DNA of 64,000 bases from IMG/VR virus record IMGVR_UViG_3300009370_000003; one strand, written 5' to 3'. Below, in pieces: positions 8,770 through 50,502 of this stretch. A program made the translations under genes and the position numbers. Each line of letters begins with the position of its first letter. Within the stretch, counting starts at the first letter, position 1. A model generated the notes under the pieces. The model saw only the letters and a program-made list of their open reading frames with translations, was not told the origin of the DNA and ran no database searches. This DNA is from a virus.

Positions 8770-9051
8770 CTACTCTTGGAAAAAAGTTTTATGCTGTAGA
8801 CGGTCAAGTTTCTCGTCAATCTTCTGAATTGAAGATAAAACTCTCTCAAAATCAGCCTCAATTTGTTCTCTTGTTGCGTAGTCTCTTGCTATCTCTTCAC
8901 GAGTTTTATTGACAAGAATGTCTAATCTTTTTTGTTCTGATAATACATTACGAATCAAAAACCCAAGAGGGAGAATGATTATAGTCATTATAAGATTCCA
9001 TAAGATGTATGGTGATATCGTGATTTCCATATGGTTATTTATGGAATTCAC
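8770..9051 (-). CDS. Hypothetical protein with one TM helix and a coiled coil
   Basis: Hydrophobic ILWNLIMTIIILPLGFLI followed by an amphipathic helical tail. Confidence 0.6.
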   Translation of the reverse strand: MNSINNHMEITISPYILWNLIMTIIILPLGFLIRNVLSEQKRLDILVNKTREEIARDYATREQIEADFERVLSSIQKIDEKLDRLQHKTFFQE

Positions 9052-9734
9052 TTCGTCAGTTCGCCGTCTTCTCCTATTTCAAACCTGTCCCAAGCTGTAT
9101 CAATTTCTAAAGGTTCTGACCTTCCTCCAGTCAAATATCGGGTATCTGTATTAAATGCAACACTATATCTATCCTTATTGGTTGGATTAGGTTCTACCAT
9201 ATGCATCATAGCACTAGGGAACATAAGAAGGGTTCCTGATATTGGTCGAACTTCATGTGATTCACGCTGTCTCATGTTATGTGGGAAGTCTGAAACAACT
9301 TTTGGGTCTGTATTAATTGCAACAAAATTTCCTTCGTCACCTTCAGCATGAATATATAATGCACCACTATACCAACAACCGTTATGCAAATGTGGTTTAT
9401 TCCACGCAAGGTGGTCATTAATATTAGCCCAAACATTACCAATAGTTACCTGAACTTTACTTAAATCAATACCATGAAATCGAACAATATCTTGGTTCAA
9501 TTTATCTTTCATGACTCTCAACATTTTATTCCATATTGGTCTCCGCTCAACCCCGTCATTAGATTGCCAGCCCGTATATGCGTTAGATATTCTCCGTCCT
9601 ACGGGGTCTTTGGCTCTCATGCTATCCATATCTGCTTTCAGTTGTTGCAGATATGTCTCCGTCACTAAACCTTCTTCAAGTAAGTTATACTCAAACAAAA
9701 AGGTAGGAAATAATAATCTAACTGCCATAATCAA
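9048..9734 (-). CDS. 2OG-Fe(II) oxygenase (TIGR02466-like)
   Basis: LFPT N-terminus, WANIN...NKPHLH...SGALY, LMFPSAMMHMV...RYSVAFN. Confidence 0.85.
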   Translation of the reverse strand: MIMAVRLLFPTFLFEYNLLEEGLVTETYLQQLKADMDSMRAKDPVGRRISNAYTGWQSNDGVERRPIWNKMLRVMKDKLNQDIVRFHGIDLSKVQVTIGNVWANINDHLAWNKPHLHNGCWYSGALYIHAEGDEGNFVAINTDPKVVSDFPHNMRQRESHEVRPISGTLLMFPSAMMHMVEPNPTNKDRYSVAFNTDTRYLTGGRSEPLEIDTAWDRFEIGEDGELTK

Positions 9735-10669
9735 TCTCTGTCTATATTTTCGTTAGACTCCGCACCGTCCCAGTTTAAATCTGTTTGACTTCTTTGCTTC
9801 TCAACGAAATCCATCTCTAACTGATTTTCGTCCTTTTCATGCATAGGACATTCAGGTGGAGGTGATTCTCCTTCTTTCATATGCTGAAAGAATTTACTTT
9901 TTGGATTCCATATCTTAGCCTGTCTATATCCACCAATATTTAATCGAGAGTTCGGAAGTCCAGTTTCTTCGTCCACTAACTTTAAATCTCTTTGCCATTT
10001 TTGCATCGAATTCTCTGCTATTGCATGTTCATTAAACCAAGTCTCGGACTCCCCATAGAAGTATGTCGATGCCCATTCTTCTCTTTTAAAAGGTACTACC
10101 TGTAGTATAGGAGTTCCAGTTGGAATTATGAACGAGTAATCTACCCTAGGATAGAATATGATTTGTCCGTTATCTACGCCAACATTAAATTTATCGGTAT
10201 CGATAACCCCTTGCCATACTGCAAAGTATTTATTCTGAAATAAAAACGGGTCTATAAACAAAACAGAATAGCCCGGCGGAGTTGTCATATTCCAATGAGA
10301 AGATATTTTAAATGCATCTTTAACTGGTGAATCATCAATATATTGAATAGTATCTGCAAGTTGTGCCGAAGGGTGTGATTGTGATACTTCTGTTATACCT
10401 TCTTCGACTTGCATTTCCTGACTACCGTCTGGCCAATTCCAATCTACTCCGTTTCTTACTGGAATATCCTTAGTGCAAACAATGTAATAACCCATTGTTA
10501 ACCAGTCTTGCATTGCTGGACAAGACCTAATAGTTTGAGTCAATCTACCTCTATGGTCAATTCTGACTTTCATCTTCTTCCACCATTCTGGCTGATAGTC
10601 TCTAGCTGCTATTGGTCTAAAGCTTGCATAAGACTCTTCGTCATAAGTTCTAAATTCAATCGTTGGCAT
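9731..10669 (-). CDS. Conserved phage hypothetical protein (DUF6065-like), commonly found beside 2OG oxygenases
   Basis: PEWWK, TIRSCPAMQD..TMGY, TPPGYSVLF..P, GVIDTD and GTPILQVVPFKREEW motifs. Confidence 0.6.
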   Translation of the reverse strand: MPTIEFRTYDEESYASFRPIAARDYQPEWWKKMKVRIDHRGRLTQTIRSCPAMQDWLTMGYYIVCTKDIPVRNGVDWNWPDGSQEMQVEEGITEVSQSHPSAQLADTIQYIDDSPVKDAFKISSHWNMTTPPGYSVLFIDPFLFQNKYFAVWQGVIDTDKFNVGVDNGQIIFYPRVDYSFIIPTGTPILQVVPFKREEWASTYFYGESETWFNEHAIAENSMQKWQRDLKLVDEETGLPNSRLNIGGYRQAKIWNPKSKFFQHMKEGESPPPECPMHEKDENQLEMDFVEKQRSQTDLNWDGAESNENIDRD

Positions 10670-11381
10670 ATCTTCTTTTCTCGTCTAATACTGCAATCTC
10701 ATCTCCTCGTAATACGATTGACCGTCTGTCTAAGTATTTAGCTTTTTTATGAGGTGCCTCTGCACCGTGTGGTATTCTTCCGTCAAACATTAATAATCTA
10801 TTTGGAACAAAATCAACAGAACCAATTTCAAGGCGATCCATTTCTTTTAAAATCCCCATAGGAATAGTATCTTTATAAAATCTTAATCTTCCACCAAAAT
10901 TTGGGTTCCAAAAACTATTTGAGTAGTATAAAAAAGAAAGGCTCCATTCATCTTCTTGAGAAGCATCTGAATGACATGTTCCATGTTGTCCATGTGTTTG
11001 AGAATTGCCACCCATATATTGAAACCTAACCCAATCAAAACCAAAATCAGTTCGGATTTTTCTATCTAACCACCTCATTAAAGGTTTATTTGGATTGTCT
11101 CCAGCTGGAGTGAAGTCTATCCCAGCAAAATAAGAACAACCCCATAATTGGTGATTTGGTAAACCACCTCTATTAGGAATGTTACCGTTTACTTGATTAT
11201 TTTTAGACCAAGCAGTTCTTCTGTGTAATTCATCATCTACATTTTTCCACAATGAAGTTTCTAGATAATTATCTAGAACATAAACATTGTTCTCTAATGG
11301 AAAACTGTCCTGAATATAGAAAGGCTCGTCTATAAAATGGACATTGATATTATCCAGCGTCATTTGGTTGTAACCCACCAC
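10656..11381 (-). CDS. 2OG-Fe(II) oxygenase (prolyl-hydroxylase-like)
   Basis: HxD (CHSD), W..NFGG.L.F, PNRLLMFDGRIPHGA and the distal R typical of the double-stranded beta-helix fold. Confidence 0.85.
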   Translation of the reverse strand: MVGYNQMTLDNINVHFIDEPFYIQDSFPLENNVYVLDNYLETSLWKNVDDELHRRTAWSKNNQVNGNIPNRGGLPNHQLWGCSYFAGIDFTPAGDNPNKPLMRWLDRKIRTDFGFDWVRFQYMGGNSQTHGQHGTCHSDASQEDEWSLSFLYYSNSFWNPNFGGRLRFYKDTIPMGILKEMDRLEIGSVDFVPNRLLMFDGRIPHGAEAPHKKAKYLDRRSIVLRGDEIAVLDEKRRYAND

Positions 11382-11928
11382 TGCTTCTCAAATGAGAAGG
11401 TGGAGGCAGCTGCATTAAGTATTCCTCTAAAGGTTTAAGAGTATCTTCTCTTGTTATCGATATCTCTCTGAATACTTCTTCAGCAACACAAGCCAATGCG
11501 TCTGTATATTCCAAAACCCTTCGGGCATTTGATCTGTGTGGATGCGCTGACCCTTCACGAGCAGCAATAGAAACTTCTACTATATCATCAAAACCATACT
11601 GTTCGACTTGTTGATAAGTGTTTCTTCTAACCCCTTCTGCAACTCGACCAGCATATTGTTGATTTAAACTAACCCCACTTGGTGGTTCAGAATTTTCAAT
11701 ATAAGCTTCGATTGCGTCCTTTTCATTTTCAGATAAAGGAAGTTTTGCTTGTTCGTCAAGCTCTTTACCGTCTTCCCATTCTTCAACTTTGCATTCAATA
11801 TCATCATATATTATAACTTGATAGTCAAATCCTAAGTCAGGAGCGTCAACACTTTCATGTCTCCACTCTAATCCATTTGGTTTTCTTATAAAAAGATTTC
11901 CGTTTTCGCAGTAAACTAATGCATTCAT
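11350..11928 (-). CDS. Hypothetical protein (possible fibre assembly chaperone)
   Basis: Acidic 192-aa ORF in the operon. The helical C-terminus (YGFDDI..V...LEEYLMQLP) loosely resembles tail-fibre assembly proteins. Confidence 0.45.
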   Translation of the reverse strand: MNALVYCENGNLFIRKPNGLEWRHESVDAPDLGFDYQVIIYDDIECKVEEWEDGKELDEQAKLPLSENEKDAIEAYIENSEPPSGVSLNQQYAGRVAEGVRRNTYQQVEQYGFDDIVEVSIAAREGSAHPHRSNARRVLEYTDALACVAEEVFREISITREDTLKPLEEYLMQLPPPSHLRSSGGLQPNDAG

Positions 11929-11938
11929 ATTAACTCCA

Positions 11939-13567
11939 TTATACCTTTAACATTCTTTTATATGTTTCATATACTTCTAACATATTTATGTGTTCACAAT
12001 CCATGCCTTTTATCCATGGGCCACCTCTTGTATAGTGAACTGCATGGTGACTATTTAACATGGTTTTTTCATATCCTTCGGTTGCAATTTTATCATGTGG
12101 TATCTTACTAATTTGATTAGTCCATTCAAACTGGTGTAAAAACTGACCACTTGCAGTATTAACTACTTCGGGTGTTAATTTCCTACAATCTTCATGACCA
12201 TTATTAAATATCATCATACTAGACCACAATTTTTTAGGATATGAAACATTCTTTTCTCCACCCATTTTTGTCTCGTCATGCTCTTTAAAATCATATTGAA
12301 CACATGCAATAGCATGATCAGGGTCTAAGAAATAAAATAAAGACATAGGTGAATATTTCCATATGTAGTCATCGTCTATAAAGAAACTAAATCCTTCATA
12401 GTTTTCTAAATATGGAATTAAGAATCTACTGTAAGTAAACTCTGTCGATTGATTTGCGTAGTCCCTATTATATTCGGGAATTTGGCTTATGTCAAGTTTC
12501 TTAACTTCTACTTTGTAATCATTAAAAAACTCTTGGCCATCGCCACCGCTTCTACATTTATCTATTGAATCGTGTATAGAATTCTCTGCAATTTTAAATA
12601 TATCACTATGAGAAGAATCATAGCCAAGATAGATATTAACTGGTTTCTTTTTACATAATTTAGTTACTTTTTTATTAAAATCATAAACATAATCTCTAAA
12701 ATTTAACCCACCAACATTACTAGGAGACCATTCAATCTTACCGTCTCTAGTGTATATAGCTGTGAGTGAGTCTCCCTTTACTGTGTCTTTCCAATAATCT
12801 AAGATATCATCTAAAGTCATTGAGTCAATGTTAGGAAATAAATTTGTATAATCTGTAACTAAAATAGGAAGTTCAGGTATGTCTATTGTTTCAAATACCT
12901 TTGAACGAATCGAGCCGGGATGAATGCTTATCTTAGGTATAATATCGTGCTCTTCTCCATCGGCCCCAAGGTATTTACCACCAGCTGCAGTATGTCCTTG
13001 TATGCATTGCCAGAGACCTTCTTTTTGTATATTATTAATCAACCAGTGTGCTTTTGCAGCGTGATAATATTGTGCTTGTAATGCATTTTCTTCGTCTATA
13101 TTTAACTTATTACAATCAGGGTGGTCACTAACAGTTGATAACCATTGATACTCATCATCTGTATTTTTAAAATCCATAGAACCACCTTTTACAGGGTGGT
13201 CGGGTCTAGGTTCTTGAGAATATCCTAAATGAAGGTATCTATGATATTGTAATGAATTATGATGCAACTGTTGATATCCCATCAACTTCCCAGCATCTAT
13301 TAATTTTTTAACTTCTGACCATGGAACCATTCGTATCGGAGGTTGTTGTGAGACAACATACTCCATTATCTTATAAGTTTCTGTCTCTTTATACTTGCCC
13401 GGCAGAACGGGTGCATCGTGGGGATTAATAAAACTTATAGAACCTAAGTTAAATTCCTGAACCTCACCGCGTGACGGAGACCCGTGAGAATTTTTTACCT
13501 CATCGAGGTCTCTACGGAATGTGAATTTGCGGGCTTCCTCAAGTGTTTCTATCTTCACCATAGTCAT
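11939..13567 (-). CDS. Fusion of an unknown N-terminal domain and a GT-A glycosyltransferase
   Basis: C-terminal domain has IYLGYDS, STEFTYSRFLIPYL, FIDDD (DxD), YPKKLWSSMMIFN, FLHQFEW and HYTRGGPW. Confidence 0.85.
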   Translation of the reverse strand: MTMVKIETLEEARKFTFRRDLDEVKNSHGSPSRGEVQEFNLGSISFINPHDAPVLPGKYKETETYKIMEYVVSQQPPIRMVPWSEVKKLIDAGKLMGYQQLHHNSLQYHRYLHLGYSQEPRPDHPVKGGSMDFKNTDDEYQWLSTVSDHPDCNKLNIDEENALQAQYYHAAKAHWLINNIQKEGLWQCIQGHTAAGGKYLGADGEEHDIIPKISIHPGSIRSKVFETIDIPELPILVTDYTNLFPNIDSMTLDDILDYWKDTVKGDSLTAIYTRDGKIEWSPSNVGGLNFRDYVYDFNKKVTKLCKKKPVNIYLGYDSSHSDIFKIAENSIHDSIDKCRSGGDGQEFFNDYKVEVKKLDISQIPEYNRDYANQSTEFTYSRFLIPYLENYEGFSFFIDDDYIWKYSPMSLFYFLDPDHAIACVQYDFKEHDETKMGGEKNVSYPKKLWSSMMIFNNGHEDCRKLTPEVVNTASGQFLHQFEWTNQISKIPHDKIATEGYEKTMLNSHHAVHYTRGGPWIKGMDCEHINMLEVYETYKRMLKV

Positions 13568-13588: not shown

Positions 13589-14515
13589 TTAAGAGGTAAT
13601 CGGAGTCGCAGGCCACTGTTGTTGTAATACGCCATCCCATCTTGGAACTGGTGTTCGACCAGCCCTTTGATAAGTGAATGGACTTCTATGATCATATGTT
13701 GTAGGAGTTTGACCTTGTCTAGCATAGGTAAACGGAGACCTATAATTATAAGTGAACGGGGTTTGTCCAGTTCTCTGATAAGTAAACGGAGACCTATGTT
13801 GATATGTATCAGGAGTTTGTCCAGTTCTCTGATAAGTAAATGGACTCCTATGGTCATAGGTATAAGGTGACCTATGGTCATATATTACTGGTTGTCTTGA
13901 ATCTCTAATATTAGGTTCTTGAATGTTCCTGATATTAGGTTCTTGTTGGTTCCTGATATTAGGTTCTTGTTGATTTCTAATGTTAGGTTCTTGAGCTGAC
14001 CTAATGTTAGGTTCTTGTGCATTAGAAGGACTTTGAGCATTCTTAATAGTCGGTTGTTGAGCAGACTTAATCGTAGGTTGTTGTGCCGCAACTGGATTCC
14101 TATAGGTAAACGGTGACCTATATTGATAAGTATTCGGCTGTCTTGCCGCATTTTGATAAGTAAACGGCGACCTATGGTTATAGGTAAACGGTGACCTATG
14201 GTTATATGTGCCTGGCGACCTCCAAGTGTAGGTAAACGGCGACCTATGGTTATAGGTAAACGGTGACCTATGTTGATAAATGGTCGGTTGTCTTGCTTGT
14301 GCGATAAATGGTTGTCTCGCAGGTGCTTGATAAGTGGTCGGTTGCCTTGCCTGTGCAATAAAAGGTTGTCTCGCAGGTGCTTGATAAGTGGTCGGTTGCC
14401 TTGCCTGTGCAATAAATGGTTGTCTCGCAGGTGCTTGGTATATTACAGGCTGCCGTGCCTGTGCAATAAACGGCTGTCTTGCGTTTCCGATAAATGGTGA
14501 TTGATAAAAAGGCAT
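13589..14515 (-). CDS. Proline-punctuated repeat protein A (308 aa), mirror partner of protein B
   Basis: 34 units of 6, 8 or 10 aa over aa 7-288, including PFIAQARQ, PTTYQAPARQ, PFTYNHRS, PNIRNQQE and PFTYQRTGQT. Confidence 0.85.
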   Translation of the reverse strand: MPFYQSPFIGNARQPFIAQARQPVIYQAPARQPFIAQARQPTTYQAPARQPFIAQARQPTTYQAPARQPFIAQARQPTIYQHRSPFTYNHRSPFTYTWRSPGTYNHRSPFTYNHRSPFTYQNAARQPNTYQYRSPFTYRNPVAAQQPTIKSAQQPTIKNAQSPSNAQEPNIRSAQEPNIRNQQEPNIRNQQEPNIRNIQEPNIRDSRQPVIYDHRSPYTYDHRSPFTYQRTGQTPDTYQHRSPFTYQRTGQTPFTYNYRSPFTYARQGQTPTTYDHRSPFTYQRAGRTPVPRWDGVLQQQWPATPITS

Positions 14516-15405
14516 TATTCTTTCTCCCCGCCTGGCGGTTGTCCACTATAATATAGTGGAATCCTTGCTTGATAAGTAAACGGGTTCTGTGCATTATGCG
14601 TAAACGGACTTTGTTTACTCGCAGAATAGGTAAACGGGTTCTGTGCATTATGTGTAAACGGATTCTGTCTATTTGCTGGATAGGTAAATGGATTCTGTGC
14701 ATTATGCGTAAACGGATTCTGTCTATTTGCTGGATAAGTAAACGGGTTCTGTGCATTATGTGTAAACGGATTCTGTCTATTTCTACTATTCGGTTCCTGT
14801 CCTGACCTAATGTTAGGTTCCTGTCCTGACCTAATGTTAGGTTCTTGGAAATTCCTAATGACAGGTTGCTGACTTGACCTAATGTTAGGTTCTTGAGCAT
14901 TCGCTGGATAAGTAAACGGAGTCTGACTTGACCTAATGTTAGGTTCCTGTGCATTTACAGGATTTCTATATGTAAATGGAGACCTGTGATTGTAAGTAAA
15001 TGGAGACCTGTGATTGTAAGTAAACGGGTTCCTATATGTGAACGGAGACCTATGGTCATAAGTAAACGGCGACCTGTGATTGTAAGTTAAAGGACTTCTG
15101 TGGTTATAAGTAGTAGGACTTCTGTGGTCGTAAGTATACGGTGACCTATGGTCGTAAGTAAACGGACTTTGTTTACTCCTACTATTCGGTTGTTGAATAT
15201 TTCTTATGTTTGGTTCTTGAGCATTCGCAATATAAGGATAGGGATTTTGTCTATCCCTTATATTAGGTTCCTGTGCAGCTGCAATATAAGGATACGGTTG
15301 TTGTGCATTTCTTATATTAGGTTCTTGACCATTCGCGATATAAGGATAAGCATTTTGCCTATTTCTTATATTAGGTTCTTGAGCTGTTGCAATATATGGA
15401 TAAGG
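13652..15405 (-). repeat. Coding tandem repeats with 18/24/30-bp units and 54-bp higher-order units
   Basis: Visible near-identical DNA units such as gtaaacggtgacctatggttatag, attaggttcttg... and aaacgggttctgtgcattatg. Confidence 0.9.
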
Positions 15406-15570
15406 GTTTTGAACTGCTTCTTGCCCAGACGCATCATTCCATGTCGCCGGGCCGGTTTTTGCATATATTTGATCAACAGCCTTCCAAGTAGACGCACCTG
15501 TCTTTACCCAAGCACCTTGAGTTGCGTTCCAACCTGTAGGGGTCTTAACCTTCTGATTACCTGATGCCAT
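14515..15570 (-). CDS. Proline-punctuated repeat protein B (351 aa)
   Basis: N-terminal (V/A)KTxxxW beta repeats, then 34 units over aa 56-337. TAATG overlap with protein A. Confidence 0.85.
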   Translation of the reverse strand: MASGNQKVKTPTGWNATQGAWVKTGASTWKAVDQIYAKTGPATWNDASGQEAVQNPYPYIATAQEPNIRNRQNAYPYIANGQEPNIRNAQQPYPYIAAAQEPNIRDRQNPYPYIANAQEPNIRNIQQPNSRSKQSPFTYDHRSPYTYDHRSPTTYNHRSPLTYNHRSPFTYDHRSPFTYRNPFTYNHRSPFTYNHRSPFTYRNPVNAQEPNIRSSQTPFTYPANAQEPNIRSSQQPVIRNFQEPNIRSGQEPNIRSGQEPNSRNRQNPFTHNAQNPFTYPANRQNPFTHNAQNPFTYPANRQNPFTHNAQNPFTYSASKQSPFTHNAQNPFTYQARIPLYYSGQPPGGEKE

Positions 15571-15593: not shown

Positions 15594-17216
15594 TTAAGAG
15601 TATAAAATCCACAAGTCACCAACGGCCCCATCTCCTCCTGTAGGTGCTGAAGTTGACTGATACACATTTCTTGCTGTCCCACCACTATTTGTGGCATTTG
15701 TTATTGTCACCGCACCAACCGACAATGGAGCTACAGAAATAGTTAAACCTCCTGTTGAAGCACCCGTGTCTGTTGTGGTTCCTAATATGAAACTATCTGC
15801 AGATTCGTCCCAACCCATAAATCCGTTATTACCTGTTGACCCTCTTTCAAGAATCAAACCAAGGTCATTAGAGTTAGAACCTGTATTACCTGAACCAAGT
15901 TCGATTAATGCATCTTCAATAGTAGTATTAGTTGCACTATTAGTAACGGTTGCACCATTAACTGTTAAATTTCCTGATACTATGACATCATCAAATGTTA
16001 CATCGTCTGATGTGCCAACTGCCTGTCCGATACTGAACTGGCCACCTGAATAGGTAACACCTGTTCCAGCACTTAAATGTGCTCTTACTTCTGCAGCACT
16101 CGGGCCTGTATATGTGAATACACCTGTTGAATTATTATATGCAAGTGAACCATCTCCACCAGCATCTGTGACTGATACATCTGCTCTTACTAAAGCTTCT
16201 GTGTATTGTGTTATTGTAGTTGCAAGTGTTAAAGTTCCCGCTGCATCATCATATGTTGCTGTTATTCCTGTTCCAGCAGTTACCAAAGCAGCGACTCTAT
16301 CGTCTACTCTTTCTGATGTATGGTAAAGGTTACTTGAACCTTCTGATAATGCATCTGTGTCTGCAAGAACAGTTCCACCTAATGAAGTTGCAGAACCAGC
16401 GATTGTTATACTTGAATTTGAAAGTTTTGAATTTGAGATAGAACCTGCCAACATGGCATCTGTTATACCTAATGCTTTAACTCGAACTGCATCTGAACTT
16501 AATTCTACTGAACTTCCGTCTACACCTACTGCAAGAACACCACTTGACGCTGCAAGTCCGTTTCCTGCTATTGCTGTAACTACATCTGCTATTGCTTCTT
16601 TCTTACTTGAGTTATCTGTTGCATCTACTATTGCAAAACTGTCAGCTGCAACATCTACTGTAGCTGCTGTTAATTCGTTTAAGTCTAGTGCTAATGATAC
16701 TGCACCACTTGTTCCACCACCTGATAAACCGTCACCTGCTGTGACTCCTGTTAAATCTGCAGTTGTGGATAAAACACCATTTGTTGCAGTTATGTTTGTA
16801 CCTGCCATTGCTGTAGCAAGGTCTGCGATTGATTCTTTTCTCGAACCGTTACTGTCGTTTGCATCAATAATTGCAATACTATCGTTTGCAACATCTACTG
16901 AAGCTGCTGTTAATTCACTTAAGTCTAATGCAAGTGTGGCATCACCTGATGTCGCACCACCTGAAAGACCGTCTCCAGCAACAACACTTGATATGTCACC
17001 TGTTTCTGCATCTCTTGTGATTGTTAGGGTTCCGGCTCCATCATTATATGATAATGATATACCCGAACCAGCTGTCATTAAAGTGTTTACTTGGTCATCG
17101 ATTGCTTCTAATGCAGCGGTTCCAAATGCAGCTGCAGTTAAGTCTCCTGAACTGTCAATTACTTCGGTTGCACCTACATTCAGCCCGTTTTTTATTCTAA
17201 AATTCTGCGCTGCCAT
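15594..17216 (-). CDS. Tail fibre / stalk-like structural protein
   Basis: G/T/A/S/D-rich, with a duplicated AGDGLSGG..SG...LALDL.ELTAA.VDVA.DS.AI.DA block and a C-terminal STSAPTGGDGAVGDLWILYS. Confidence 0.75.
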   Translation of the reverse strand: MAAQNFRIKNGLNVGATEVIDSSGDLTAAAFGTAALEAIDDQVNTLMTAGSGISLSYNDGAGTLTITRDAETGDISSVVAGDGLSGGATSGDATLALDLSELTAASVDVANDSIAIIDANDSNGSRKESIADLATAMAGTNITATNGVLSTTADLTGVTAGDGLSGGGTSGAVSLALDLNELTAATVDVAADSFAIVDATDNSSKKEAIADVVTAIAGNGLAASSGVLAVGVDGSSVELSSDAVRVKALGITDAMLAGSISNSKLSNSSITIAGSATSLGGTVLADTDALSEGSSNLYHTSERVDDRVAALVTAGTGITATYDDAAGTLTLATTITQYTEALVRADVSVTDAGGDGSLAYNNSTGVFTYTGPSAAEVRAHLSAGTGVTYSGGQFSIGQAVGTSDDVTFDDVIVSGNLTVNGATVTNSATNTTIEDALIELGSGNTGSNSNDLGLILERGSTGNNGFMGWDESADSFILGTTTDTGASTGGLTISVAPLSVGAVTITNATNSGGTARNVYQSTSAPTGGDGAVGDLWILYS

Positions 17217-20428: not shown

Positions 20429-20836
20429 TCAGAATCGTCTATAGGGTATAATTGGAATATAAATTCCTAGTCCAATTCCTTCATTTTGTATAACTGGGTA
20501 TATTGATACCACTTGAAGAGCTCTTAGTGTGAATTGTCTTTCTCTTTGGTTCAGTCTCTTGTCTAGCATGTTGTAGATCATATAATTCATTCCCAATTTT
20601 ATAGCAATTACTTCCCCTTTCTTTGGGTGAGTTCCAACTAATTGATTTGTTTCGTAATAGGGACAGTGTGGATTTCGGTCTTGACATTCGATTAATGCGA
20701 AAGTCTGCATTACATCAATAGTCTGTAAAGTTATAAAAGATTTGTAGAGACGCTGGTCTTGAGTCGACCAATCGTCTAGGGCAGCGTTACATGTACCAGC
20801 AGCGGTTAATAGTAAGAATGTAATTAACCACTTCAT
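20429..20836 (-). CDS. Hypothetical exported or membrane protein
   Basis: Signal peptide-like MKWLITFLLLTAAGTCNA. Confidence 0.6.
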   Translation of the reverse strand: MKWLITFLLLTAAGTCNAALDDWSTQDQRLYKSFITLQTIDVMQTFALIECQDRNPHCPYYETNQLVGTHPKKGEVIAIKLGMNYMIYNMLDKRLNQRERQFTLRALQVVSIYPVIQNEGIGLGIYIPIIPYRRF

Positions 20837-21414: not shown

Positions 21415-23250
21415 TTATGATTTAGAATACTGTGCAGTAGGAACTTCTTGGTGTATTTTAGCTACAGCCTGTGTGCTGGGGTTGTGAACATAAACCTGTT
21501 TTACCTTAGTTGCCGTTGACTGCCCACTCTCATTAACAAATACACCTTTCACTTTTGCAAGAGGGCCAATTGGTCTTGTAGTTGAATAAGGCGTTTGATA
21601 TGGAAACGGTGACCTATGGTCATAGTTAAGTTGATATTGATGCTGGTAAGTAGTCGGTTGCCTATGTTGTGCCTGAAATGGTTGTTGAGCATTTACTGGG
21701 TGACCATATGTAAACGGAGACCTATATTGATAAGTATTCGGTTGTCTTGCTTGTGCAGTATATGGATAGGTTTGTTGTGTGTCCCTACTATTTTGTGCGT
21801 CTGAAATAAACGGACTTTGATAAGTAAACGGACTTTGAACTTGGTATATAATCGGAGTTTGACCTGTCCTTTGATAAGTAAACGGACTTCTATGGTCGTA
21901 AGTATTCGGTTGTCTTGCTTGTCCTTGGTAAGTGCCCGGCTGTCTCGCATTTGCAATATATGGATACGGTTGTCTTGCAACTCCAATATACGGTGATCTA
22001 TGGTCATAAGTATAAGGACTTCTATGGTCGTAAGTAGTAGGACTTCTGTGGTCGTAAGTATACGGTGACCTATGGTCATATATTACTGGTTGTCTTGAAT
22101 CTCTAATATTAGGTTCTTGAATATTTCTTATGTTTGGCTCTTGACCTTGTGCTATCACCTGATTCGTAAAAGGTTGAAATGCAATATATGGTGTATCACT
22201 TTGTGCTACTGACGGGTTCGCAGCTTGTGTTGGTTGATTTGTAACTTGGAATATATAAGGTGACTGCAATGGTGGCACGCCCGGCTCTCCGTCTGGAATC
22301 GGAGTCCGACCTATTGCTGGCCCACTATATTGGAAGGTGTAAGGAGTTTGAACCTGATACGCATTTTGATATTGTGCTTGATAAAATCCACCTTGTGCAG
22401 TGCTTGGAGCTCGGGATGGTACATTCCTAGTTCTTATGTTAGGTTCTTGATTGGACATAACATAACTCTCTTCCACCAACTCACCTCCACCCCAGCCCGG
22501 CCCAGTCCAACCACCAAAAGGTATATAGGCTGGGTTAGTCTGATAAGTAAATGGACTTCTATATTGATATGGTTGTTGAACAATAGACGGAGTTTGAATA
22601 TTTACTGGACTCGGTTGCTGAGCAGTGTAAGGAAATGGACTTCTATATTGGTAAGTATAAGGACTTCTATGATCGTAAGTAAATGGACTCTGTTTACTTC
22701 TTTGATTAGGTTCTTGAATGTTCCTGATATTAGGTTCTTGTTGGTTCCTGATATTAGGTTGTTGAATATCTCTTATGTTTGGCTCTTGTAAATTACTATT
22801 CGGAATAGCTAATTGACCTGTTCTTTGATAGGTAAATGGAGTCTGACTAATCGCAGGAAATGTAAATGGAGTCTGACTATTTCTTATATTAGGTTCTCGG
22901 CCAGTTGCAATATAAGGATAGGGCTGTTGTTTGTTCTTAGCATTATTTTCTTGTGCGCTTACAGGTTGTCTACTTTGATATTCAGTCGGGTGTTGATATA
23001 TAACTGGTGTTCGACCTGTTCTTTGATAGGTAAATGGAGTCTGACTATTTCTTATATTAGGTTCTCGACCCTGAACTATGTTTTGATATGTAAACGGTGA
23101 TTGTTCTGCATTCGTAAATGGATTTTGCCTATTTGCAATAGTTGGCACAGCTTTCTGTCGAGAGACAGGTTGCTGTCCTTGTGCAATTACTTGTCCTTGG
23201 TAAGGTTGTTGAAACTCCGACCCAGTGTTTATATAGATATCGTCAGCCAT
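21415..23250 (-). CDS. Proline-punctuated repeat protein C (611 aa), internally palindromic
   Basis: Same repeat vocabulary as A and B. Arms at aa 16-204 and 372-559 flank a less regular centre. Confidence 0.85.
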   Translation of the reverse strand: MADDIYINTGSEFQQPYQGQVIAQGQQPVSRQKAVPTIANRQNPFTNAEQSPFTYQNIVQGREPNIRNSQTPFTYQRTGRTPVIYQHPTEYQSRQPVSAQENNAKNKQQPYPYIATGREPNIRNSQTPFTFPAISQTPFTYQRTGQLAIPNSNLQEPNIRDIQQPNIRNQQEPNIRNIQEPNQRSKQSPFTYDHRSPYTYQYRSPFPYTAQQPSPVNIQTPSIVQQPYQYRSPFTYQTNPAYIPFGGWTGPGWGGGELVEESYVMSNQEPNIRTRNVPSRAPSTAQGGFYQAQYQNAYQVQTPYTFQYSGPAIGRTPIPDGEPGVPPLQSPYIFQVTNQPTQAANPSVAQSDTPYIAFQPFTNQVIAQGQEPNIRNIQEPNIRDSRQPVIYDHRSPYTYDHRSPTTYDHRSPYTYDHRSPYIGVARQPYPYIANARQPGTYQGQARQPNTYDHRSPFTYQRTGQTPIIYQVQSPFTYQSPFISDAQNSRDTQQTYPYTAQARQPNTYQYRSPFTYGHPVNAQQPFQAQHRQPTTYQHQYQLNYDHRSPFPYQTPYSTTRPIGPLAKVKGVFVNESGQSTATKVKQVYVHNPSTQAVAKIHQEVPTAQYSKS

Positions 23251-23251
23251 A

Positions 23252-24478
23252 TCATACTACAAACCATAAGTGACCTACAGCTGAAGAACCAACTGAGCCT
23301 GGCGCAGTAGATACTATCTCATAATCAAGTTCAACATTTCCACTATTGATTTCTATCCCCTTTGAAGTGTTTACAACGAAATCTAATTGACCATTCGGGT
23401 CATCATAAGTTACAGTGATACCAGTTTCGGTATTGCCTGAAACCATACCTCCAACGATGTCTTCTATTTCTTCTTGAGTCTTCTGAGCAACTCCAGTAAA
23501 ACTAAAACTATTTGCATTATCATCATATGATATTGAAATATTAGTGTGAGTTCCAGCCGAGAATGCATCATTCAATGCGTCTTGTGCATTTTCATTTGTA
23601 TAAGTTGCAGCTGCATCATCATTTTCCCACTTACTGGTTGTCGAATTATAAACTAAAACTTGACCATTCGCAGGGCTAGAGGTTGTGACATCACTCAAAC
23701 CACCAACCGAATGACCTGATATAGAATTTGTTGTTGATGAAGTTGTTGCATTACCAACAAAGTTTGTTGAAGTTATAGAACTAAATCCTGTTCCTACACC
23801 ACCTGTAATAGTTGCTGTTCCATCAGTAAGTGTTGGTGCAGTTAATGTTTTACCTGAAGCAAGTGTCATATTGTCTTCTACAAAAACATTACCATTTGCT
23901 AACTGGATTGTATAACCCGACTCTAGTAAGACTGTTCTTCCTGTACTAGACCCATTTAAAATAACTCCATCAGTGTTAACATTATAAATTGTATTTGCAG
24001 CTGTTTCTACAAAGTGACCTCCAGCAGCTCCTCCAACACCACCAGCATCTCCTAGGACTGAACCAGTGAATGCATAAACTGTAAGAATATCATTTACTGC
24101 AGCTGCATTTTGTAAAGTTATTTTAGTCCATTTACCAGCAACTGCTGTGGCTGGGTTGTAATCTGTTCCTTCTACTAAATGTTTTGAAGTTCCAGCCGAA
24201 TGGTCATTTAAGAATACCTGATATCTGCCCGGCATAAGTTCTAAGGTATTAAGATTTGAATCTTCACCAGTGAAATCTGTCTGTCCAGCAGTTGCTACAT
24301 ATTCAAATGTTTGGAAGTAAAAAGTCTTAGCTTCTAATTCATTAATTGCATCTACTAGATTATTATCGTTAGATATACTTCCCGCAAGTCCAGCAATAGT
24401 TCCGACATCATTTGCGAGGTCGTTATGAGTGCTTCTAAACTCTTCTATAGTTTGATTTCTGTCTACTGTTCTAGCCAT
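23252..24478 (-). CDS. Fibre / stalk-like structural protein
   Basis: N-terminal TIEEFR..HN, YVATAGQTDF, repeated E..QD.....GT.T.I..SYDD units and C-terminal STAPGSVGSSAVGHLWFVV. Confidence 0.7.
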   Translation of the reverse strand: MARTVDRNQTIEEFRSTHNDLANDVGTIAGLAGSISNDNNLVDAINELEAKTFYFQTFEYVATAGQTDFTGEDSNLNTLELMPGRYQVFLNDHSAGTSKHLVEGTDYNPATAVAGKWTKITLQNAAAVNDILTVYAFTGSVLGDAGGVGGAAGGHFVETAANTIYNVNTDGVILNGSSTGRTVLLESGYTIQLANGNVFVEDNMTLASGKTLTAPTLTDGTATITGGVGTGFSSITSTNFVGNATTSSTTNSISGHSVGGLSDVTTSSPANGQVLVYNSTTSKWENDDAAATYTNENAQDALNDAFSAGTHTNISISYDDNANSFSFTGVAQKTQEEIEDIVGGMVSGNTETGITVTYDDPNGQLDFVVNTSKGIEINSGNVELDYEIVSTAPGSVGSSAVGHLWFVV

Positions 24479-45234: not shown

Positions 45235-45687
45235 ATGTCATACAGTGGTAAGTTTAAACCAAAGAACTATAAAAAATATAAGGGAGACCCTACAAAAATC
45301 TTTTACAGGTCTTTATGGGAACGCAGATTCATGGTTTACTGCGATAATAATCCCAATATTATAGAATGGGGAAGTGAAGAAATCATAATTCCTTATCGTT
45401 CTCCTGTAGATAAAAAAGTCCATAGATACTTTCCTGATTTCTATATTAAATATCAAAATAGTAAAGGTGAAGTCCTTAGAGAAATCGTTGAGGTTAAACC
45501 AAAGGCTCAATGTCTACCACCTAAAGAACCTAAAAGGAAAACAAGAAAATATAGGAATAAAGTCATCACCTATATAATCAACCAAGCAAAATTTAAAGCA
45601 GCTGGTGACTATTGTAGAGATAGAAAAATGGGATTCAGAATTCTAACCGAAGACCACCTAGTCCCCAAGAGTAAAAGAAAAAAATGA
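45235..45687 (+). CDS. gp4: Head completion nuclease
   Basis: YSGKFKPKN..KY.GDP, YRSLWE, HRYFPDF, EVKP. Confidence 0.93.
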   Translation: MSYSGKFKPKNYKKYKGDPTKIFYRSLWERRFMVYCDNNPNIIEWGSEEIIIPYRSPVDKKVHRYFPDFYIKYQNSKGEVLREIVEVKPKAQCLPPKEPKRKTRKYRNKVITYIINQAKFKAAGDYCRDRKMGFRILTEDHLVPKSKRKK

Positions 45688-46274
45688 GTAAATTATTTGT
45701 ATTTGATTTGGACGGAGTTCTTATTAACTCCCTACTTAACATGAAGAATGCATGGGACGCCGTAAGGGTGAAACATGAGATTGAAATCCCATTCCGATAT
45801 TATAAAGCACAAATAGGTAAACCCTTCCCTGACATTATGAGTGAACTAGGATTGTTTGATAAACACCTAGAGATATATGACACCTATAAAACATATTCTC
45901 AAATGAACATTCACACTATTCCTATGTATGAGGGTGTTAATGAAACTCTAAACGAATTAAAAGACCAAGGTCATAAGATTGCACTATGCACTTCTAAAAC
46001 AAAAGAAACCACTAACATACTCTTAAGTAAATTCCCTAAATTTGATTATGTCTGTTGTCCACAAAAAGGCCTTCGTGGTAAACCAGCACCTGACCAATTA
46101 CTATACACTATTGCCATGTGTAATGTTGACCCTAAAGACACAATTTATATTGGAGACATGATGCCTGACCTACAATGTGCTGTTAGAGCTGGTGTCCATT
46201 TCGAATATGCAGAATGGGGATTTGGAGAATTAAAATGCGAGCACTCGCTGAAGTCGATTACAAATCTGATTTAG
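45684..46274 (+). CDS. HAD-family phosphatase
   Basis: FDLDGVL, CTSK, KPAP and YIGD...D motifs. Confidence 0.9.
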   Translation: MSKLFVFDLDGVLINSLLNMKNAWDAVRVKHEIEIPFRYYKAQIGKPFPDIMSELGLFDKHLEIYDTYKTYSQMNIHTIPMYEGVNETLNELKDQGHKIALCTSKTKETTNILLSKFPKFDYVCCPQKGLRGKPAPDQLLYTIAMCNVDPKDTIYIGDMMPDLQCAVRAGVHFEYAEWGFGELKCEHSLKSITNLI

Positions 46275-46963
46275 TTATTGGGTTAATTCCCGCGAGGTGG
46301 AAATCAACTCGGTTCGAAGGGAAACCACTTGTAGATATAGCGGGTGTGCCTATGATACGAAGGGTATATGACCGTGCAAGTATTGCTAATCACTTAGACC
46401 AAGTCATTGTCCTTACAGACGACATGAGAATTAATGACTATTGTCAACTGAATCAAATGACATGTATTGTAATAGAAGAAGATTGCCGAACTGGAACAGA
46501 CCGTTGCGCTCACGCTCTGAAATTATTGGAGGGTAGTCTCTTTGTAAACATTCAAGGAGACGAACCCTTGATTAATCCTTCTGCAATAGACAATCTTATA
46601 GAAAATTTCGATAATAATATAGGTGTTGCAAATGCATATACTAAAATTGACCAAGATTATAAACTAAATGACAGAAATGTTGTAAAAGTTGTGTTTGATA
46701 AGGCAAAAAATGCGCTTTATTACAGTAGATTACCTATATCAGACTACCAACAGCTGGGATTATATGCCTTTAACCGCGGTATGCTGGACGCCTTTCCTAA
46801 ATTTACCCTAGGAGAACTGGAAATTGACGAATCTATCGAAATGTTGAGGTATCTTGAGAACGGATTTGATGTTAAAATGGTTGAAGTCGAAGATGAGGGC
46901 CTTTCCGTAGATACTCCTAACGATTTAAAGCTGGTTGAACTAAAAATTAAGGGATATCACTAA
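46214..46963 (+). CDS. kdsB: CMP-Kdo synthetase (3-deoxy-manno-octulosonate cytidylyltransferase)
   Basis: IPARWKSTRFEGKPL, TGTDR, NIQGDEP, EMLRYLENG, VDTP.DL. Confidence 0.88.
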   Translation: MGIWRIKMRALAEVDYKSDLVIGLIPARWKSTRFEGKPLVDIAGVPMIRRVYDRASIANHLDQVIVLTDDMRINDYCQLNQMTCIVIEEDCRTGTDRCAHALKLLEGSLFVNIQGDEPLINPSAIDNLIENFDNNIGVANAYTKIDQDYKLNDRNVVKVVFDKAKNALYYSRLPISDYQQLGLYAFNRGMLDAFPKFTLGELEIDESIEMLRYLENGFDVKMVEVEDEGLSVDTPNDLKLVELKIKGYH

Positions 46964-47847
46964 TGGAACACATACATTTAAACGCACATAAGGTAAAATA
47001 CTATGAAAATGGTGAGCAACCTTCTAGTTATCACCAACGAGACCCCGTAGCAGTAGAAGAAGTCAAACAAAAGTTCGAAGAAGTGTCAAAAGTCGGCCAT
47101 CCTAAGATAATAACACTGCATGAAGCCCAAAAAGAAGGCATAGTTCAGACTAAAGGGTATTATAACGACAAACCAATGACCCCTTTAGAGGCATATGGTT
47201 ATGTATGGCTTGATAATGCCTATAAAACAGAATATCCTGACCCAAAAACAGCTAAAGGCCAAGAGTGGAGTGACTTTTTAATGAAACCAATCGAAAATCA
47301 AGTGTTTCATTGCATTAAGATACAATGGTTAGTCAATATCATACAAACAGAGGGCCTTTATTCTTGTCCTCAAGCGGTATTAAGAAAATCTCAATGGTTT
47401 GTCCATCCCGGCCAGTTCAGAGTTCATGCTATTACCTATACTGACTGTAATGAAGAGTTCATTGTTTGGGATACTAAGAATATTTTACCTCAACCCGAAA
47501 TAGATTATGAAGAATGGTGGTCTAGATACAGTCACCATACAGATAAAGGTTTATTTGCAGCAGTCTTTGAAGATATTGTAGAAATGCATGTCGGAGAATA
47601 TCGCCAAGACCTATATGATAAGGTTGCTGGTGGGATAGATTGCTTCCAAGGTGTTAAACCAATACTCGAAGGAACATGTGACGAGAGCATAGCACATTTA
47701 TTCACCCATGGAACATACGAGGGCCACGGGATAGGGATTGTAGGACACTTTACCTTTGAAGATTTACAACATGTATGTGACTTCCACCCAACAAAGCAAT
47801 ATATTGGCAAAGAAAACTTTACTTTGTATAACAATTATCATAAATAA
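46963..47847 (+). CDS. Hypothetical protein, paralogue of the glycosyltransferase N-terminal domain
   Basis: FHCIKIQWLVNIIQTEGL...VHPGQFR resembles YHAAKAHWLINNIQKEGL...IHPGSIR in 11939..13567. Confidence 0.65.
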   Translation: MEHIHLNAHKVKYYENGEQPSSYHQRDPVAVEEVKQKFEEVSKVGHPKIITLHEAQKEGIVQTKGYYNDKPMTPLEAYGYVWLDNAYKTEYPDPKTAKGQEWSDFLMKPIENQVFHCIKIQWLVNIIQTEGLYSCPQAVLRKSQWFVHPGQFRVHAITYTDCNEEFIVWDTKNILPQPEIDYEEWWSRYSHHTDKGLFAAVFEDIVEMHVGEYRQDLYDKVAGGIDCFQGVKPILEGTCDESIAHLFTHGTYEGHGIGIVGHFTFEDLQHVCDFHPTKQYIGKENFTLYNNYHK

Positions 47848-47852
47848 TAGAT

Positions 47853-48440
47853 ATGGCAAGTCTATTTTCAGATATAATTGGTCAAAAGCCAGAAGAGATT
47901 GAAGCTCAAACCTTCAACTCGTTAGAATGGTTCCAAAAGAATGTAAGGGATATCCGTAGGAGTCCCGATAAGCTGTTAAAAGAAAATCAAAACTTTGTCA
48001 CTCGATTTGAGTTAGGTAAAATGTATATGTTTATGTATGATGCTAAACGGCAAGATACATTGAAGTATTACGATTACTTTCCTCTCTCAATTTGTTTGAG
48101 AAGATATCCAACTGGTTTTCTAGGTGCAAATTTACATTACATTGCACCGAAATACAGAGCATTACTAATGGACGCATTGTATCAGTATATCGAGATAGAC
48201 GAGACAACCGAGGAAGCTTATTTTAGGGTTAGATACCCTATGATTAAAAGCATTAGTAGGTTGAGGTGGGCAAAACCCTGTTTAAAACAATACCAATATG
48301 GTTATATAAACAGTAGGATTGTTGAAGTTCAACCTGAAGCAATGGACATGGTAGTTATGCTACCAAGTCATAAATTTAAATCAAAGGGAACTAACTTTAA
48401 TGCAAATATAGTTCACCGAGAAAGTTTAGGAAAGACATGA
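47853..48440 (+). CDS. gp2: DNA end protector protein
   Basis: GKMYMFMYDAK....LKYYDYFPL, GFLGANLHY, KPCLKQY. Confidence 0.9.
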   Translation: MASLFSDIIGQKPEEIEAQTFNSLEWFQKNVRDIRRSPDKLLKENQNFVTRFELGKMYMFMYDAKRQDTLKYYDYFPLSICLRRYPTGFLGANLHYIAPKYRALLMDALYQYIEIDETTEEAYFRVRYPMIKSISRLRWAKPCLKQYQYGYINSRIVEVQPEAMDMVVMLPSHKFKSKGTNFNANIVHRESLGKT

Positions 48441-48652
48441 TAGAAAAAATAGTAGCACAAACACTTGGTTGCAGCCAAGATTCAATAAAAGACGAATCAA
48501 ACTTTGTAAATGACTTAGGTGCCGACTCTCTTAACATAGTTGAGATAGTTATGGCAATAGAGGAAGAGTTCGATGTTTCGATTCCTGATGAAGATGCTGA
48601 GACACTTCATACAGTCGGCGCAGTAAAACAATATATTGAGGACAACTCCTAA
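48437..48652 (+). CDS. acpP: Acyl carrier protein
   Basis: DLGADSL phosphopantetheine site, VMAIEEEF, IPDEDAE...TVG. Confidence 0.92.
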   Translation: MIEKIVAQTLGCSQDSIKDESNFVNDLGADSLNIVEIVMAIEEEFDVSIPDEDAETLHTVGAVKQYIEDNS

Positions 48653-49542
48653 TGCCAAAAGGAAGTAAGGCCACAGGTGGAGCAGCACCAAAATCTAGTG
48701 GAAAGTTTAACGATAAGAGAGGCATAGATGCTCTTAAGGGATATGTCGGCCAACCTCTACAACCAAATAGATTTATTTTTCAATTCTTAACACTACCAAA
48801 AGATTTTGAATTACCTGACGGAGATACTTTAAGTATACTCTGTCAATCAGCAACATTGCCGGGCAAGTCAATAGAAACAGCAGAACATATTAGACATAGA
48901 TACATGCCTACAGGTGATGTTGATTACGGTCAAAGCATATCCCTTACTTATATTTGTGACACCTCATTTATGGATAGATATATTATAGAAGAGTGGTTAA
49001 GATATGTCCATTCAGCAGATGTTGATACATGGACTGATATAAGTTATGGTAAAAGTTCTGACGGCGAGAAACAAATTTTCAGATTCTATGATGAGTATGC
49101 AGCTCCATGTAAAGCACAATGTCATGTATTAAGAAGAGATGGTAGTGCAGCTATGACATATACATTTCATGATGTATATCCACAAGGTATAGATGATATT
49201 TCATTAGAAATGAGTTCAAATGATGAAGTTATGCAGTTTTCATTTGATTTAGGATACAAGTGGTGGACAGTTGAATACTTACCAATAGAAACAGAAGTAA
49301 AAATGAACCAACCTATGGACGGAAACTTTGAGATAAGTGGACTAAATAAAGGGAGGAAAATCTTTGATGCAGTTCTTGAAGGACTCAAGGTTGCTGGAAG
49401 GTTTAATAAGAAAGCGGGTGCAATGGGAAGGAGACTAGGTCAACTTGACACTGCAATAACCCGTGGTAGTAACATAAGCAGAGATATAGGTGGAAGCTTT
49501 AACTCTAATTATGTGACTAATAAAAGGCGTGGTGGAGGTTAA
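48652..49542 (+). CDS. Tail-tube-like baseplate protein (gp54-like)
   Basis: PNRF, LCQSATLPGKS.., DVYP, Y.WW give a gp19-like fold; lies before gp26. Confidence 0.65.
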   Translation: MPKGSKATGGAAPKSSGKFNDKRGIDALKGYVGQPLQPNRFIFQFLTLPKDFELPDGDTLSILCQSATLPGKSIETAEHIRHRYMPTGDVDYGQSISLTYICDTSFMDRYIIEEWLRYVHSADVDTWTDISYGKSSDGEKQIFRFYDEYAAPCKAQCHVLRRDGSAAMTYTFHDVYPQGIDDISLEMSSNDEVMQFSFDLGYKWWTVEYLPIETEVKMNQPMDGNFEISGLNKGRKIFDAVLEGLKVAGRFNKKAGAMGRRLGQLDTAITRGSNISRDIGGSFNSNYVTNKRRGGG

Positions 49543-49569
49543 TTCTAACACCACATAAAGAGGTATATT

Positions 49570-50274
49570 ATGGCTTTACCAAAGCAGACCGCACCGAAGT
49601 ATAAATGCATACTTCCAAGTGACGGTTCAGAAGTGGAGTTTCGACCATTTCTAGTTAAAGAGCAAAAAGTATTAATGCTTGCTCAGGAACAAGAAAAGGA
49701 TGAAGCAATGTTTGTTGCAGTGCAAGACCTTATCGAAGCAGTAACTTTCGGAAAGGTTAAATCCAAACAGTTACCTGTTATCGACATGGAATATTTGTTC
49801 CTTAAAGTTCGATCAGTATCGGTAGGAGAAACAGCAACAGTAACCTTGTCTTGCCACGACCCCAAATGTGAAGGAGGGAATGGAGAGGCAGTTGTTAATT
49901 TAGATGATGTGGAAGTAGTAGGAGACGAACCTGAACACAAAATTATGATTAGTGATGAATTAGGAATTGAGTTAAGATACCCAAGGATAAGTGATGTAGA
50001 AGCAACACAACACCTTGAGGGAGGAGCTCAAACTATTGAAATGCTGAAGCAGTGTATGGTGACAATATTTGATGAGGAAGAGGTCTACACAGTTCGAGAT
50101 AGTTCTACAAATGAACTAAACGAATTTGTTGAGACACTAACAATGACTCAATTAGAATTGTTAACTGCATTTTTTCAAGGCATACCAGTATTGAAGAAGG
50201 AAGTCGAAACAGAATGTAAAGTGTGTGGAAAGGAAATTAGAACTGAATTAGTAGGTTTACAAAGTTTTTTCTAG
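49570..50274 (+). CDS. gp26: Baseplate hub assembly protein
   Basis: MALPK...P.Y...LPS, FRPFLVKEQK.L, DMEYLFLKVRSVSVGE, CxxC, and the end GLQSFF. Confidence 0.92.
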   Translation: MALPKQTAPKYKCILPSDGSEVEFRPFLVKEQKVLMLAQEQEKDEAMFVAVQDLIEAVTFGKVKSKQLPVIDMEYLFLKVRSVSVGETATVTLSCHDPKCEGGNGEAVVNLDDVEVVGDEPEHKIMISDELGIELRYPRISDVEATQHLEGGAQTIEMLKQCMVTIFDEEEVYTVRDSSTNELNEFVETLTMTQLELLTAFFQGIPVLKKEVETECKVCGKEIRTELVGLQSFF

Positions 50275-50471: not shown

Positions 50472-50502
50472 CTCTTGCATTTTAAATGAGGAGAAATAAG
50501 TT

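What the first reader, a model, noticed from the sequence alone, without database searches (positions are those of the whole stretch)
13589..15570. Two adjacent genes encode exact mirror-image repeat strands: a candidate antiparallel protein zipper
Seen: I split both proteins at the periodic prolines. Protein B (aa 56-337, N->C) gives unit lengths 10,8,10,8,10,8,10,8x7,6,8,8,6,6,8,10,8x6,10,8,10,8,10,8,8. Protein A (aa 7-288) read C->N gives exactly the same series: 34 units and 282 residues each, including the irregular 6,8,8,6,6,8,10 centre. The facing units differ in sequence, so this is complementarity rather than duplication. Inference: A and B zip antiparallel into a long two-stranded beta-ribbon or needle (about 90-95 nm if fully extended) whose register is set by sequence, like a nucleic-acid duplex. 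I know of no described phage system like this.
Basis: partly seen in the sequence, partly recalled or inferred. Interest (0 to 1): 0.97.

Follow-up and report, generated by a model that had tools for sequence, protein, structure and literature searches.

The report
Mirror-coded two-protein phage fibre zipper
Two neighbouring genes of an uncultured marine T4-like phage encode repeat proteins that match unit for unit when one is read backwards, and over a hundred related gene pairs keep the match as their lengths change, which points to a long two-chain fibre held in register by a protein pairing code that I could not find described.

Summary
Confirmed. Read antiparallel, B (14515-15570) and A (13589-14515) share 36 proline positions at one register; 20,000 shuffles reach at most 27. 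One of the 35 unit boundaries is Ala, not Pro. No DNA inversion explains it.

In relatives, 113 of 121 distinct split pairs (A 190-559 aa, 85 unit patterns) align antiparallel without a gap. Diverged relatives carry same-size indels at mirrored places in both genes. Nine natural single-chain fusions, eight reversed gene orders and a 611-aa single-chain paralogue in this window obey the same rule. All 5,846 array prolines keep one parity per chain. The strongest coupling lies two residues off the Pro-Pro register (Pro-Gln/Arg; aromatic opposite Ala/Gly/Arg).

Best reading: a Pro-capped antiparallel beta-ribbon about 90 nm long, docked on a phage fibre tip. The pairing rule is shown; the structure is not. 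About half of the B homologues end in a Hint-like domain. The scan noted this system before on other genomes; I found no paper describing it.

The parts
14515..15570 (-). Gene B, 351 aa: outward strand
   Evidence: homologues
15412..15570 (-). B aa 1-53: conserved anchor with three VKT..W-type beta-hairpins (base of the ribbon)
   Evidence: invariant columns; the only part of the homologue model with pLDDT about 70-78
14557..15411 (-). B aa 54-338: repeat array (units of 6, 8 or 10 residues), pairs gaplessly with A aa 289-5
14513..14529 (-). B stop / A start overlap (TAATG) with an upstream GGGGAG ribosome-site-like motif; corresponds to the tip of the hairpin
   Evidence: translational coupling is inference
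13589..14515 (-). Gene A, 308 aa: return strand
   Evidence: homologues
13649..14503 (-). A aa 5-289: complementary repeat array
13589..13648 (-). A C-terminal anchor (RWD...WP), at a fixed distance from B's first Trp in the mirror register
   Evidence: offset 36-38 in 111 of 121 pairs
15594..17216 (-). Fibre-like structural gene (540 aa) ending in GDLWILYS; likely carrier of the A/B ribbon
   Evidence: phrog_697 structural protein; tail-fibre/structural hits; terminal motif in 112 of 130 loci, the other 18 had no upstream gene scored, mostly contig ends
8770..13567 (-). Conserved downstream cassette: 542-aa GT8-like glycosyltransferase fusion, 192 aa, 2OG-Fe(II) oxygenase, 312 aa, TIGR02466 oxygenase, 93 aa
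   Evidence: GT8 in 20 of 34 homologues; same order, as far as each locus reaches, in 84 of 87 loci
21415..23250 (-). Paralogue C, 611 aa: natural single-chain version; arm 18-208 pairs with arm 556-367 with one 1-residue bulge; middle 209-366 is a tip region
23252..24478 (-). Second fibre-like gene (408 aa) ending in GHLWFVV, directly before paralogue C

Best explanation
A and B are the two strands of a long antiparallel beta-ribbon that extends a virion fibre of a marine T4-like myovirus. Shown from sequence: each residue of B faces a defined residue of A (i+j=343) along about 285 residues, under a pairing code shared by the whole family. On one parity, Pro faces Gln/Arg and Asn faces Thr/Ile. 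On the other, Phe/Tyr face Ala/Gly/Arg and never another aromatic in this window; Glu faces Ser and His faces Asn. Inferred: (1) all units have even length and all prolines keep one parity, so the chains are beta-strands; the prolines sit at the non-hydrogen-bonded positions and block the two free edges. (2) B's N-terminal hairpins and A's C-terminal RWD..WP segment form a base that docks on the C-terminal GDLW strand of the upstream fibre. (3) B's C-terminus and A's N-terminus meet at the far tip, where relatives carry a turn (fusions), a short Gly-rich tail (here), a Hint-like domain or a globular head. (4) Unique unit order sets the register and length (about 85-95 nm here if extended), so an indel in one gene makes a bulge until the partner compensates. 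Function, inferred from position in the host-recognition region: a thin reach-extending or adhesion filament, possibly three per trimeric fibre, possibly hydroxylated and glycosylated by the adjacent cassette.
For: Mirror far beyond shuffles. 113/121 split pairs gapless over at least 90% of A's array, plus 8/8 pairs of the paralogous class. 85 different spacing patterns, register tied to the terminal Trp anchors in 111/121. Own versus swapped partners 0.86 versus 0.47. Matched same-size indels in about 17 comparisons of relatives at 86-99% identity, and four matched indels (+14, +2, -10, -2) between the window and its closest relative. Nine natural fusions and eight A-before-B loci. Proline parity 5,846/5,846 and strict two-face composition. 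Partner residues predict A's residues at 75-82% accuracy in held-out sequence clusters, with the largest gain at offset -2, then 0, on the aromatic parity. Side-chain volumes anticorrelate at offset -2 (-0.37, -0.38). B-A scores 434 without gaps, against 214 for A-A, 183 for B-B and 114/89 for self-hairpins (that table included this pair). Location between a VrlC-like gene and neck gp13/gp14, the host recognition cluster of PMC7029224.
Against: No structural model supports the ribbon: two AlphaFold2 runs on natural fusions left the arrays unfolded (mean pLDDT 34.5 and 39.5), which with 7 and 38 poorly aligned repeat sequences is uninformative rather than contrary. A second coupling at offset 0 fits a diagonal contact but also a second neighbour in a barrel. 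Eight of 121 pairs carry a one-sided bulge of 1-88 residues. Both arrays are net positive (A +24, B +15, His not counted). Presence in the virion, stoichiometry and host are not shown.
Confidence: 0.6

Rival explanations
1. Same antiparallel pairing, but three A/B pairs close into a six-stranded antiparallel barrel or needle, as in the T4 gp37 tip. The aromatic/small parity would face inward, with two registers: offset -2 on one side and offset 0, Pro opposite Pro, on the other.
For: Phage fibres are usually trimers (PMC12143355). There are two coupling peaks on the aromatic parity (0.229 and 0.147 bits). Pro opposite Pro would confine lost hydrogen bonds to few pairs. 31% aromatic residues on one parity suggests burial.
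Against: 28% of the residues on the parity needed for the second interface are Pro and lack NH. The supposed core parity holds many Arg-Tyr, Glu-Ser and His-Asn pairs. There is no His-x-His metal ladder in the units. Trimer state of the carrier fibre was not tested (no PDB match).
Confidence: 0.22
2. The chains pair antiparallel but not as a lasting virion beta-ribbon. Either one chain is a transient ruler or chaperone for the other, or they form an extended, heavily modified (hydroxyproline/glycan-coated) duplex held by side chains.
For: A GT8-like enzyme and 2OG oxygenases follow A in nearly all loci. Glycan-coated, dihydroxyproline-bearing linear repeat fibrils exist in water samples (PMC11725842, abstract). 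AlphaFold2 gave no beta structure in the arrays.
Against: Natural fusions keep both arms in one chain with both anchors, which argues against a disposable partner. The strict two-residue alternation fits beta, not the three-residue period of polyproline II. The enzymes' substrates are untested.
Confidence: 0.12
3. Each protein folds on itself or as a homodimer (own hairpin or solenoid), and the mirror is a by-product of shared repeat blocks.
For: Both chains use the same unit types and share direct DNA words; partial self-complementary stretches exist.
Against: Self and homo registers score far lower and mostly need gaps. It cannot explain partner-specific matched indels or self-mirror only in the fusions.
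Confidence: 0.03
4. A DNA-level process (inverted duplication, conversion) or an assembly artefact creates the mirror without any protein contact.
For: The genes are slippage-prone and exchange identical blocks with paralogue C (47-59 bp).
Against: No reverse-complement, reverse or complement similarity. The mirror holds in both gene orders and across intervening genes. It recurs in many independent assemblies with different patterns. The one-sided cases mostly have a near-identical sibling in register, so errors break the mirror rather than make it.
Confidence: 0.03

Closest known systems
T4 gp37 long-tail-fibre needle (receptor-binding tip)
   Same: Out-and-back antiparallel beta topology on a phage fibre, with a head at the turn: a six-stranded antiparallel needle from three chains (PMC9659904).
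   Different: gp37 is one chain per hairpin, a homotrimer held by seven His-coordinated irons (PMC6957217), and the whole tip is about 215 residues. Here the arms are usually two genes, about 280 residues each (A 190-559 aa in relatives), Pro-punctuated and modular, with a transferable pairing code and no sequence match to solved structures.
Streptococcal antigen I/II (SpaP, SspB, AspA) A-P stalk
   Same: Two different repeat regions pair along their length to project a head (PMC3178794).
   Different: Alpha-helix plus polyproline helix in one cell-wall protein. The two repeat types are segregated by arm, whereas here both arms carry both unit types in an irregular, partner-specific order.
Pelagimyophage/cyanomyophage host recognition cluster
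   Same: Variable island between VrlC and the neck genes with fibres and GT8 enzymes (PMC7029224); the window has the same layout.
   Different: No cultured phage record matched B or its N-terminal anchor by tblastn (the repeat filter weakens the first search). The best terminase match is 55%. The passages I searched in that paper mention no mirrored pair.
Hint/BIL and Hedgehog-type autoprocessing domains (in B homologues, not in this window)
   Same: 54 of 111 in-register B proteins end in GGG-CF...HN by motif, with sub-threshold Hint/intein Pfam hits in three of three tested.
   Different: The residue after HN is never Cys, Ser or Thr and the tail is short (commonly 4-12 residues), so canonical splicing is unlikely. 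Cys1 lies 4-15 residues beyond the position facing A's first residue in 53 of 54.

Membership tests
T4 gp37-type needle | Sequence homology to gp37 or another solved fibre tip | tested here: not met
   No Pfam or PHROG hit for A or B; no PDB match for the B profile
T4 gp37-type needle | Antiparallel out-and-back chain path | tested here: met
   By sequence covariation and natural fusions only
T4 gp37-type needle | His-x-His iron-binding ladder | tested here: not met
   Units carry single His; His faces Asn or Ala in register
T4 gp37-type needle | Homotrimer forming a six-stranded barrel | not testable with these tools
   Complex prediction unavailable; AlphaFold2 models unconfident
Antigen I/II stalk | Ala-rich alpha-helix entwined with a polyproline II helix | tested here: not met
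   Even unit lengths and strict two-residue parity in both arms; Pro every 6-10 residues in both arms excludes a long helix
Beta-solenoid / triple beta-helix repeat fibres | One chain's repeats stack on themselves, independent of a partner's repeat order | tested here: not met
   Repeat order is partner-dependent
Sense-antisense or inverted-duplication gene pairs | One gene is the reverse complement of the other | tested here: not met
   0 shared reverse-complement 12-mers
T4-like marine myovirus host recognition cluster | Lies between VrlC and the neck genes, with fibres and glycosyltransferases | tested here: met
Canonical intein (B homologues) | Cys/Ser/Thr after the terminal His-Asn | tested here: not met
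   0 of 54

The most novel reading that the evidence does not exclude
A natural, programmable protein duplex: a small alphabet of 6-, 8- and 10-residue units with fixed complements lets any unit order in one gene specify a unique partner in another, giving beta-ribbon filaments of about 55-180 nm whose length and register are read from sequence and kept by paired indels. In half of the family a Hint-like domain at the tip may cleave there, or even join B to A's N-terminus to close the hairpin; that last step is speculative.
Probability: 0.7. Interest if true: 0.95.

Novelty: categorically new. Interest (0 to 1): 0.88.

Why it matters
If right, this is protein complementarity of a kind normally seen only in nucleic acids: about 280 residues of two separately encoded chains in one sequence-set register, with a code learnable from one set of genomes and predictive in others. 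It would add a new class of phage fibre in marine T4-like viruses, give a clean system for studying compensatory indels between two genes, and supply a natural parts list for designing orthogonal beta-strand pairs and rulers of set length. The code makes direct tests easy: cognate versus swapped partners, and short complementary peptides.

Tried and rejected
AlphaFold2 on fusion L143 with 7 sequences and on fusion L325 with 38 rows, including in-frame pairs read through their stop codons, gave unconfident arrays; the fold search on the second model found nothing at Z>=2, which says nothing about novelty. Pfam and PHROG for A and B, NCBIfam and PDB sequence searches for B: no hits. ESM Atlas: B's neighbours are unnamed viral clusters, A has no hit at 0.9; 'Cementoin', DUF1388 and Gp5_trimer_C hits are sub-threshold repeat noise. 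Cultured phage tblastn: no match for B. No RNA holder listed. No whole genome held. Four prokaryote MAG contigs carry homologues; they come from unrelated taxa and are probably mis-binned phage contigs, so I draw no host from them. Nine literature searches found no description of such a pair; the library lacks most subscription journals. A paper on beta-strand register preferences could not be fetched, so the assignment of aromatic-small pairs to hydrogen-bonded sites rests on proline geometry and my own knowledge. Junction frame is not clearly biased to in-frame (40 of 103), so read-through fusion is not claimed.

Full report
Observation. The two ORFs lie on the minus strand in the order B (14515-15570, 351 aa) then A (13589-14515, 308 aa), joined by a TAATG overlap. 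Counting Pro-Pro coincidences for every antiparallel register gives 36 at i+j=345, against 27 for the next register and 27 for the best parallel one. Shuffling the Pro gaps 20,000 times never exceeds 27. Facing units are of complementary type: PFTYxHRS faces PNIRxxQE, and PFTHNAQN faces PFIAQARQ. The genes share 76 direct 12-mers and none in reverse-complement, reverse or complement orientation, so the mirror is not a DNA inversion.

Context. The window is the morphogenesis region of a T4-like myovirus: baseplate wedge genes, a VrlC-like gene, fibre genes, neck gp13/gp14, terminase and sheath. The best cultured terminase match is 55%, and the runs that hold the stretch are nearly all marine or seawater metagenomes. 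A and B sit in the island between VrlC and the neck genes that PMC7029224 calls the host recognition cluster. Upstream is a fibre-like gene ending in GDLWILYS; this motif precedes the pair in 112 of 130 loci, and the other 18 had no upstream gene scored, mostly contig ends. Downstream is a GT8-like glycosyltransferase fusion with 2OG-Fe(II) oxygenases, in the same order in 84 of 87 loci with room.

Comparative test. I fetched 376 loci. They hold 121 distinct split pairs (113 B-then-A, 8 A-then-B, some with a small gene between) and 9 single-chain fusions. A ranges from 190 to 559 aa, with 85 different spacing patterns, yet the best register lies 36-38 residues from the sum of two terminal Trp anchors in 111 of 121 pairs. 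Own partners match 0.86 of A's prolines on average, swapped partners 0.47 (51 non-redundant pairs). With a learned pair table, 113 of 121 pairs align antiparallel with no gap over at least 90% of A's array, as do all 8 pairs of a paralogous class with different ends. Among relatives at 86-99% identity, indels in B are matched by same-size indels at the mirrored place in A in about 17 comparisons. The window and its closest relative differ by +14, +2, -10 and -2 residues in B and by the same four in reverse order in A. The eight one-sided bulges mostly have a 99-100% identical sibling in register and somewhat longer exact DNA repeats; they may be assembly collapses or short-lived intermediates, and I cannot tell which.

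Fusions. Nine proteins begin like B and end like A and are internal mirrors. The window's own 611-aa paralogue (21415-23250) pairs arm 18-208 with arm 556-367 with one 1-residue bulge, under the same table, and follows a second fibre gene with the related terminal motif. Four more apparent fusions of that class turned up among the cluster representatives. Fusion, fission and gene reordering all keep the mirror, which is what physical pairing predicts and a DNA mechanism does not.

The code. All 3,071 array prolines in B chains and 2,775 in A chains keep one parity per chain. That parity is P, Q, R, T, N, I; the other is Y, A, F, S, N, Q. Mutual information and drop-one regression peak two residues off the Pro-Pro register. 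With whole sequence clusters held out and A's own neighbours as covariates, the partner residue at offset -2 adds 0.229 bits on the aromatic parity and offset 0 adds 0.147; odd offsets add under 0.05. On the Pro parity no offset stands out in that test. In the window at i+j=343, 73 of 79 prolines face Gln or Arg, 78 of 142 pairs on the other parity hold exactly one aromatic and none hold two. A table trained without the window and its closest kin gives 426 for that register, -12 for the next, and at most 324 for 20,000 length-preserving unit shuffles.

Mechanism. Shown: a partner-specific, antiparallel, residue-level correspondence under selection. Inferred from general beta-sheet geometry: two-residue alternation means beta-strands; Pro can only occupy non-hydrogen-bonded positions of a two-stranded ribbon, where it blocks the free edge; aromatic residues lie across small partners on the other positions. 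B's three N-terminal hairpins (the only confident part of the model) and A's C-terminal Trp segment form the base, probably docking on the fibre's last strand. The tip is variable: a short Gly-rich tail in 47, a Hint-like domain in 54 and another globular domain in 10 of 111 in-register B proteins. At about 3.3 A per residue the window's ribbon would be about 90 nm, less if coiled. A closed six-stranded needle of three pairs is the main geometric rival.

Comparison and verdict. It works like the T4 gp37 needle and the antigen I/II stalk in sending a chain out and back, but it fails membership tests for both. I took those two comparators from earlier notes of this scan, which reported the same system on other genomes; those notes are not independent support. 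I found no publication on it. Interest 0.88.

Noticed in passing
window 21415-23250 and 23252-24478: A second fibre-plus-zipper module: single-chain mirror protein C with a 158-aa middle region that did not pair further in my alignment.
   Followed up: yes
window 13866-13924 = 22064-22122; 13910-13965 = 22705-22760; 15107-15153 = 22031-22077: Identical 47-59 bp blocks shared between A or B and paralogue C, none of 30 bp or more between A and B; suggests recent exchange of units between modules.
   Followed up: yes
L004:6001-7413, L042:6001-7512, L025:6001-7962 and about 50 more: B homologues end in a Hint-like domain after a Gly run, with no nucleophile after HN; it sits at the ribbon tip beside A's N-terminus.
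   Followed up: partly
L048, L065, L071, L074, L075, L077-L080: B carries a 140-150 aa C-terminal globular domain with no informative Pfam hit (four tested), and an 85-95 aa gene lies between B and A; possibly a receptor-binding head with a partner or chaperone.
   Followed up: no
L162, L168, L173, L188, L189, L193, L210, L374: Gene order reversed (A before B) with the mirror register unchanged.
   Followed up: yes
window 14159-14232: One unitig in run X3 skips 72 nt (three 8-residue units) of gene A across a 41-nt exact repeat; either a one-sided variant or a graph artefact.
   Followed up: no
L002, L007, L022, L041, L233, L338, L358, L366: Pairs with a one-sided bulge of 1-88 residues; candidates for evolutionary intermediates or assembly collapse.
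   Followed up: partly
window 8770-13567: GT8-like plus oxygenase cassette tightly linked to the zipper; PHROG labels the 235-aa oxygenase 'DNA endonuclease V' while Pfam and NCBIfam point to a 2OG-Fe(II) oxygenase.
   Followed up: partly
window 20429-20836: 135-aa ORF with a signal-peptide-like N-terminus inside the fibre region; no PHROG hit.
   Followed up: no
window 45235-53487: Block of plus-strand genes with reversed GC skew, including a 780-aa protein with weak tape-measure hits.
   Followed up: no
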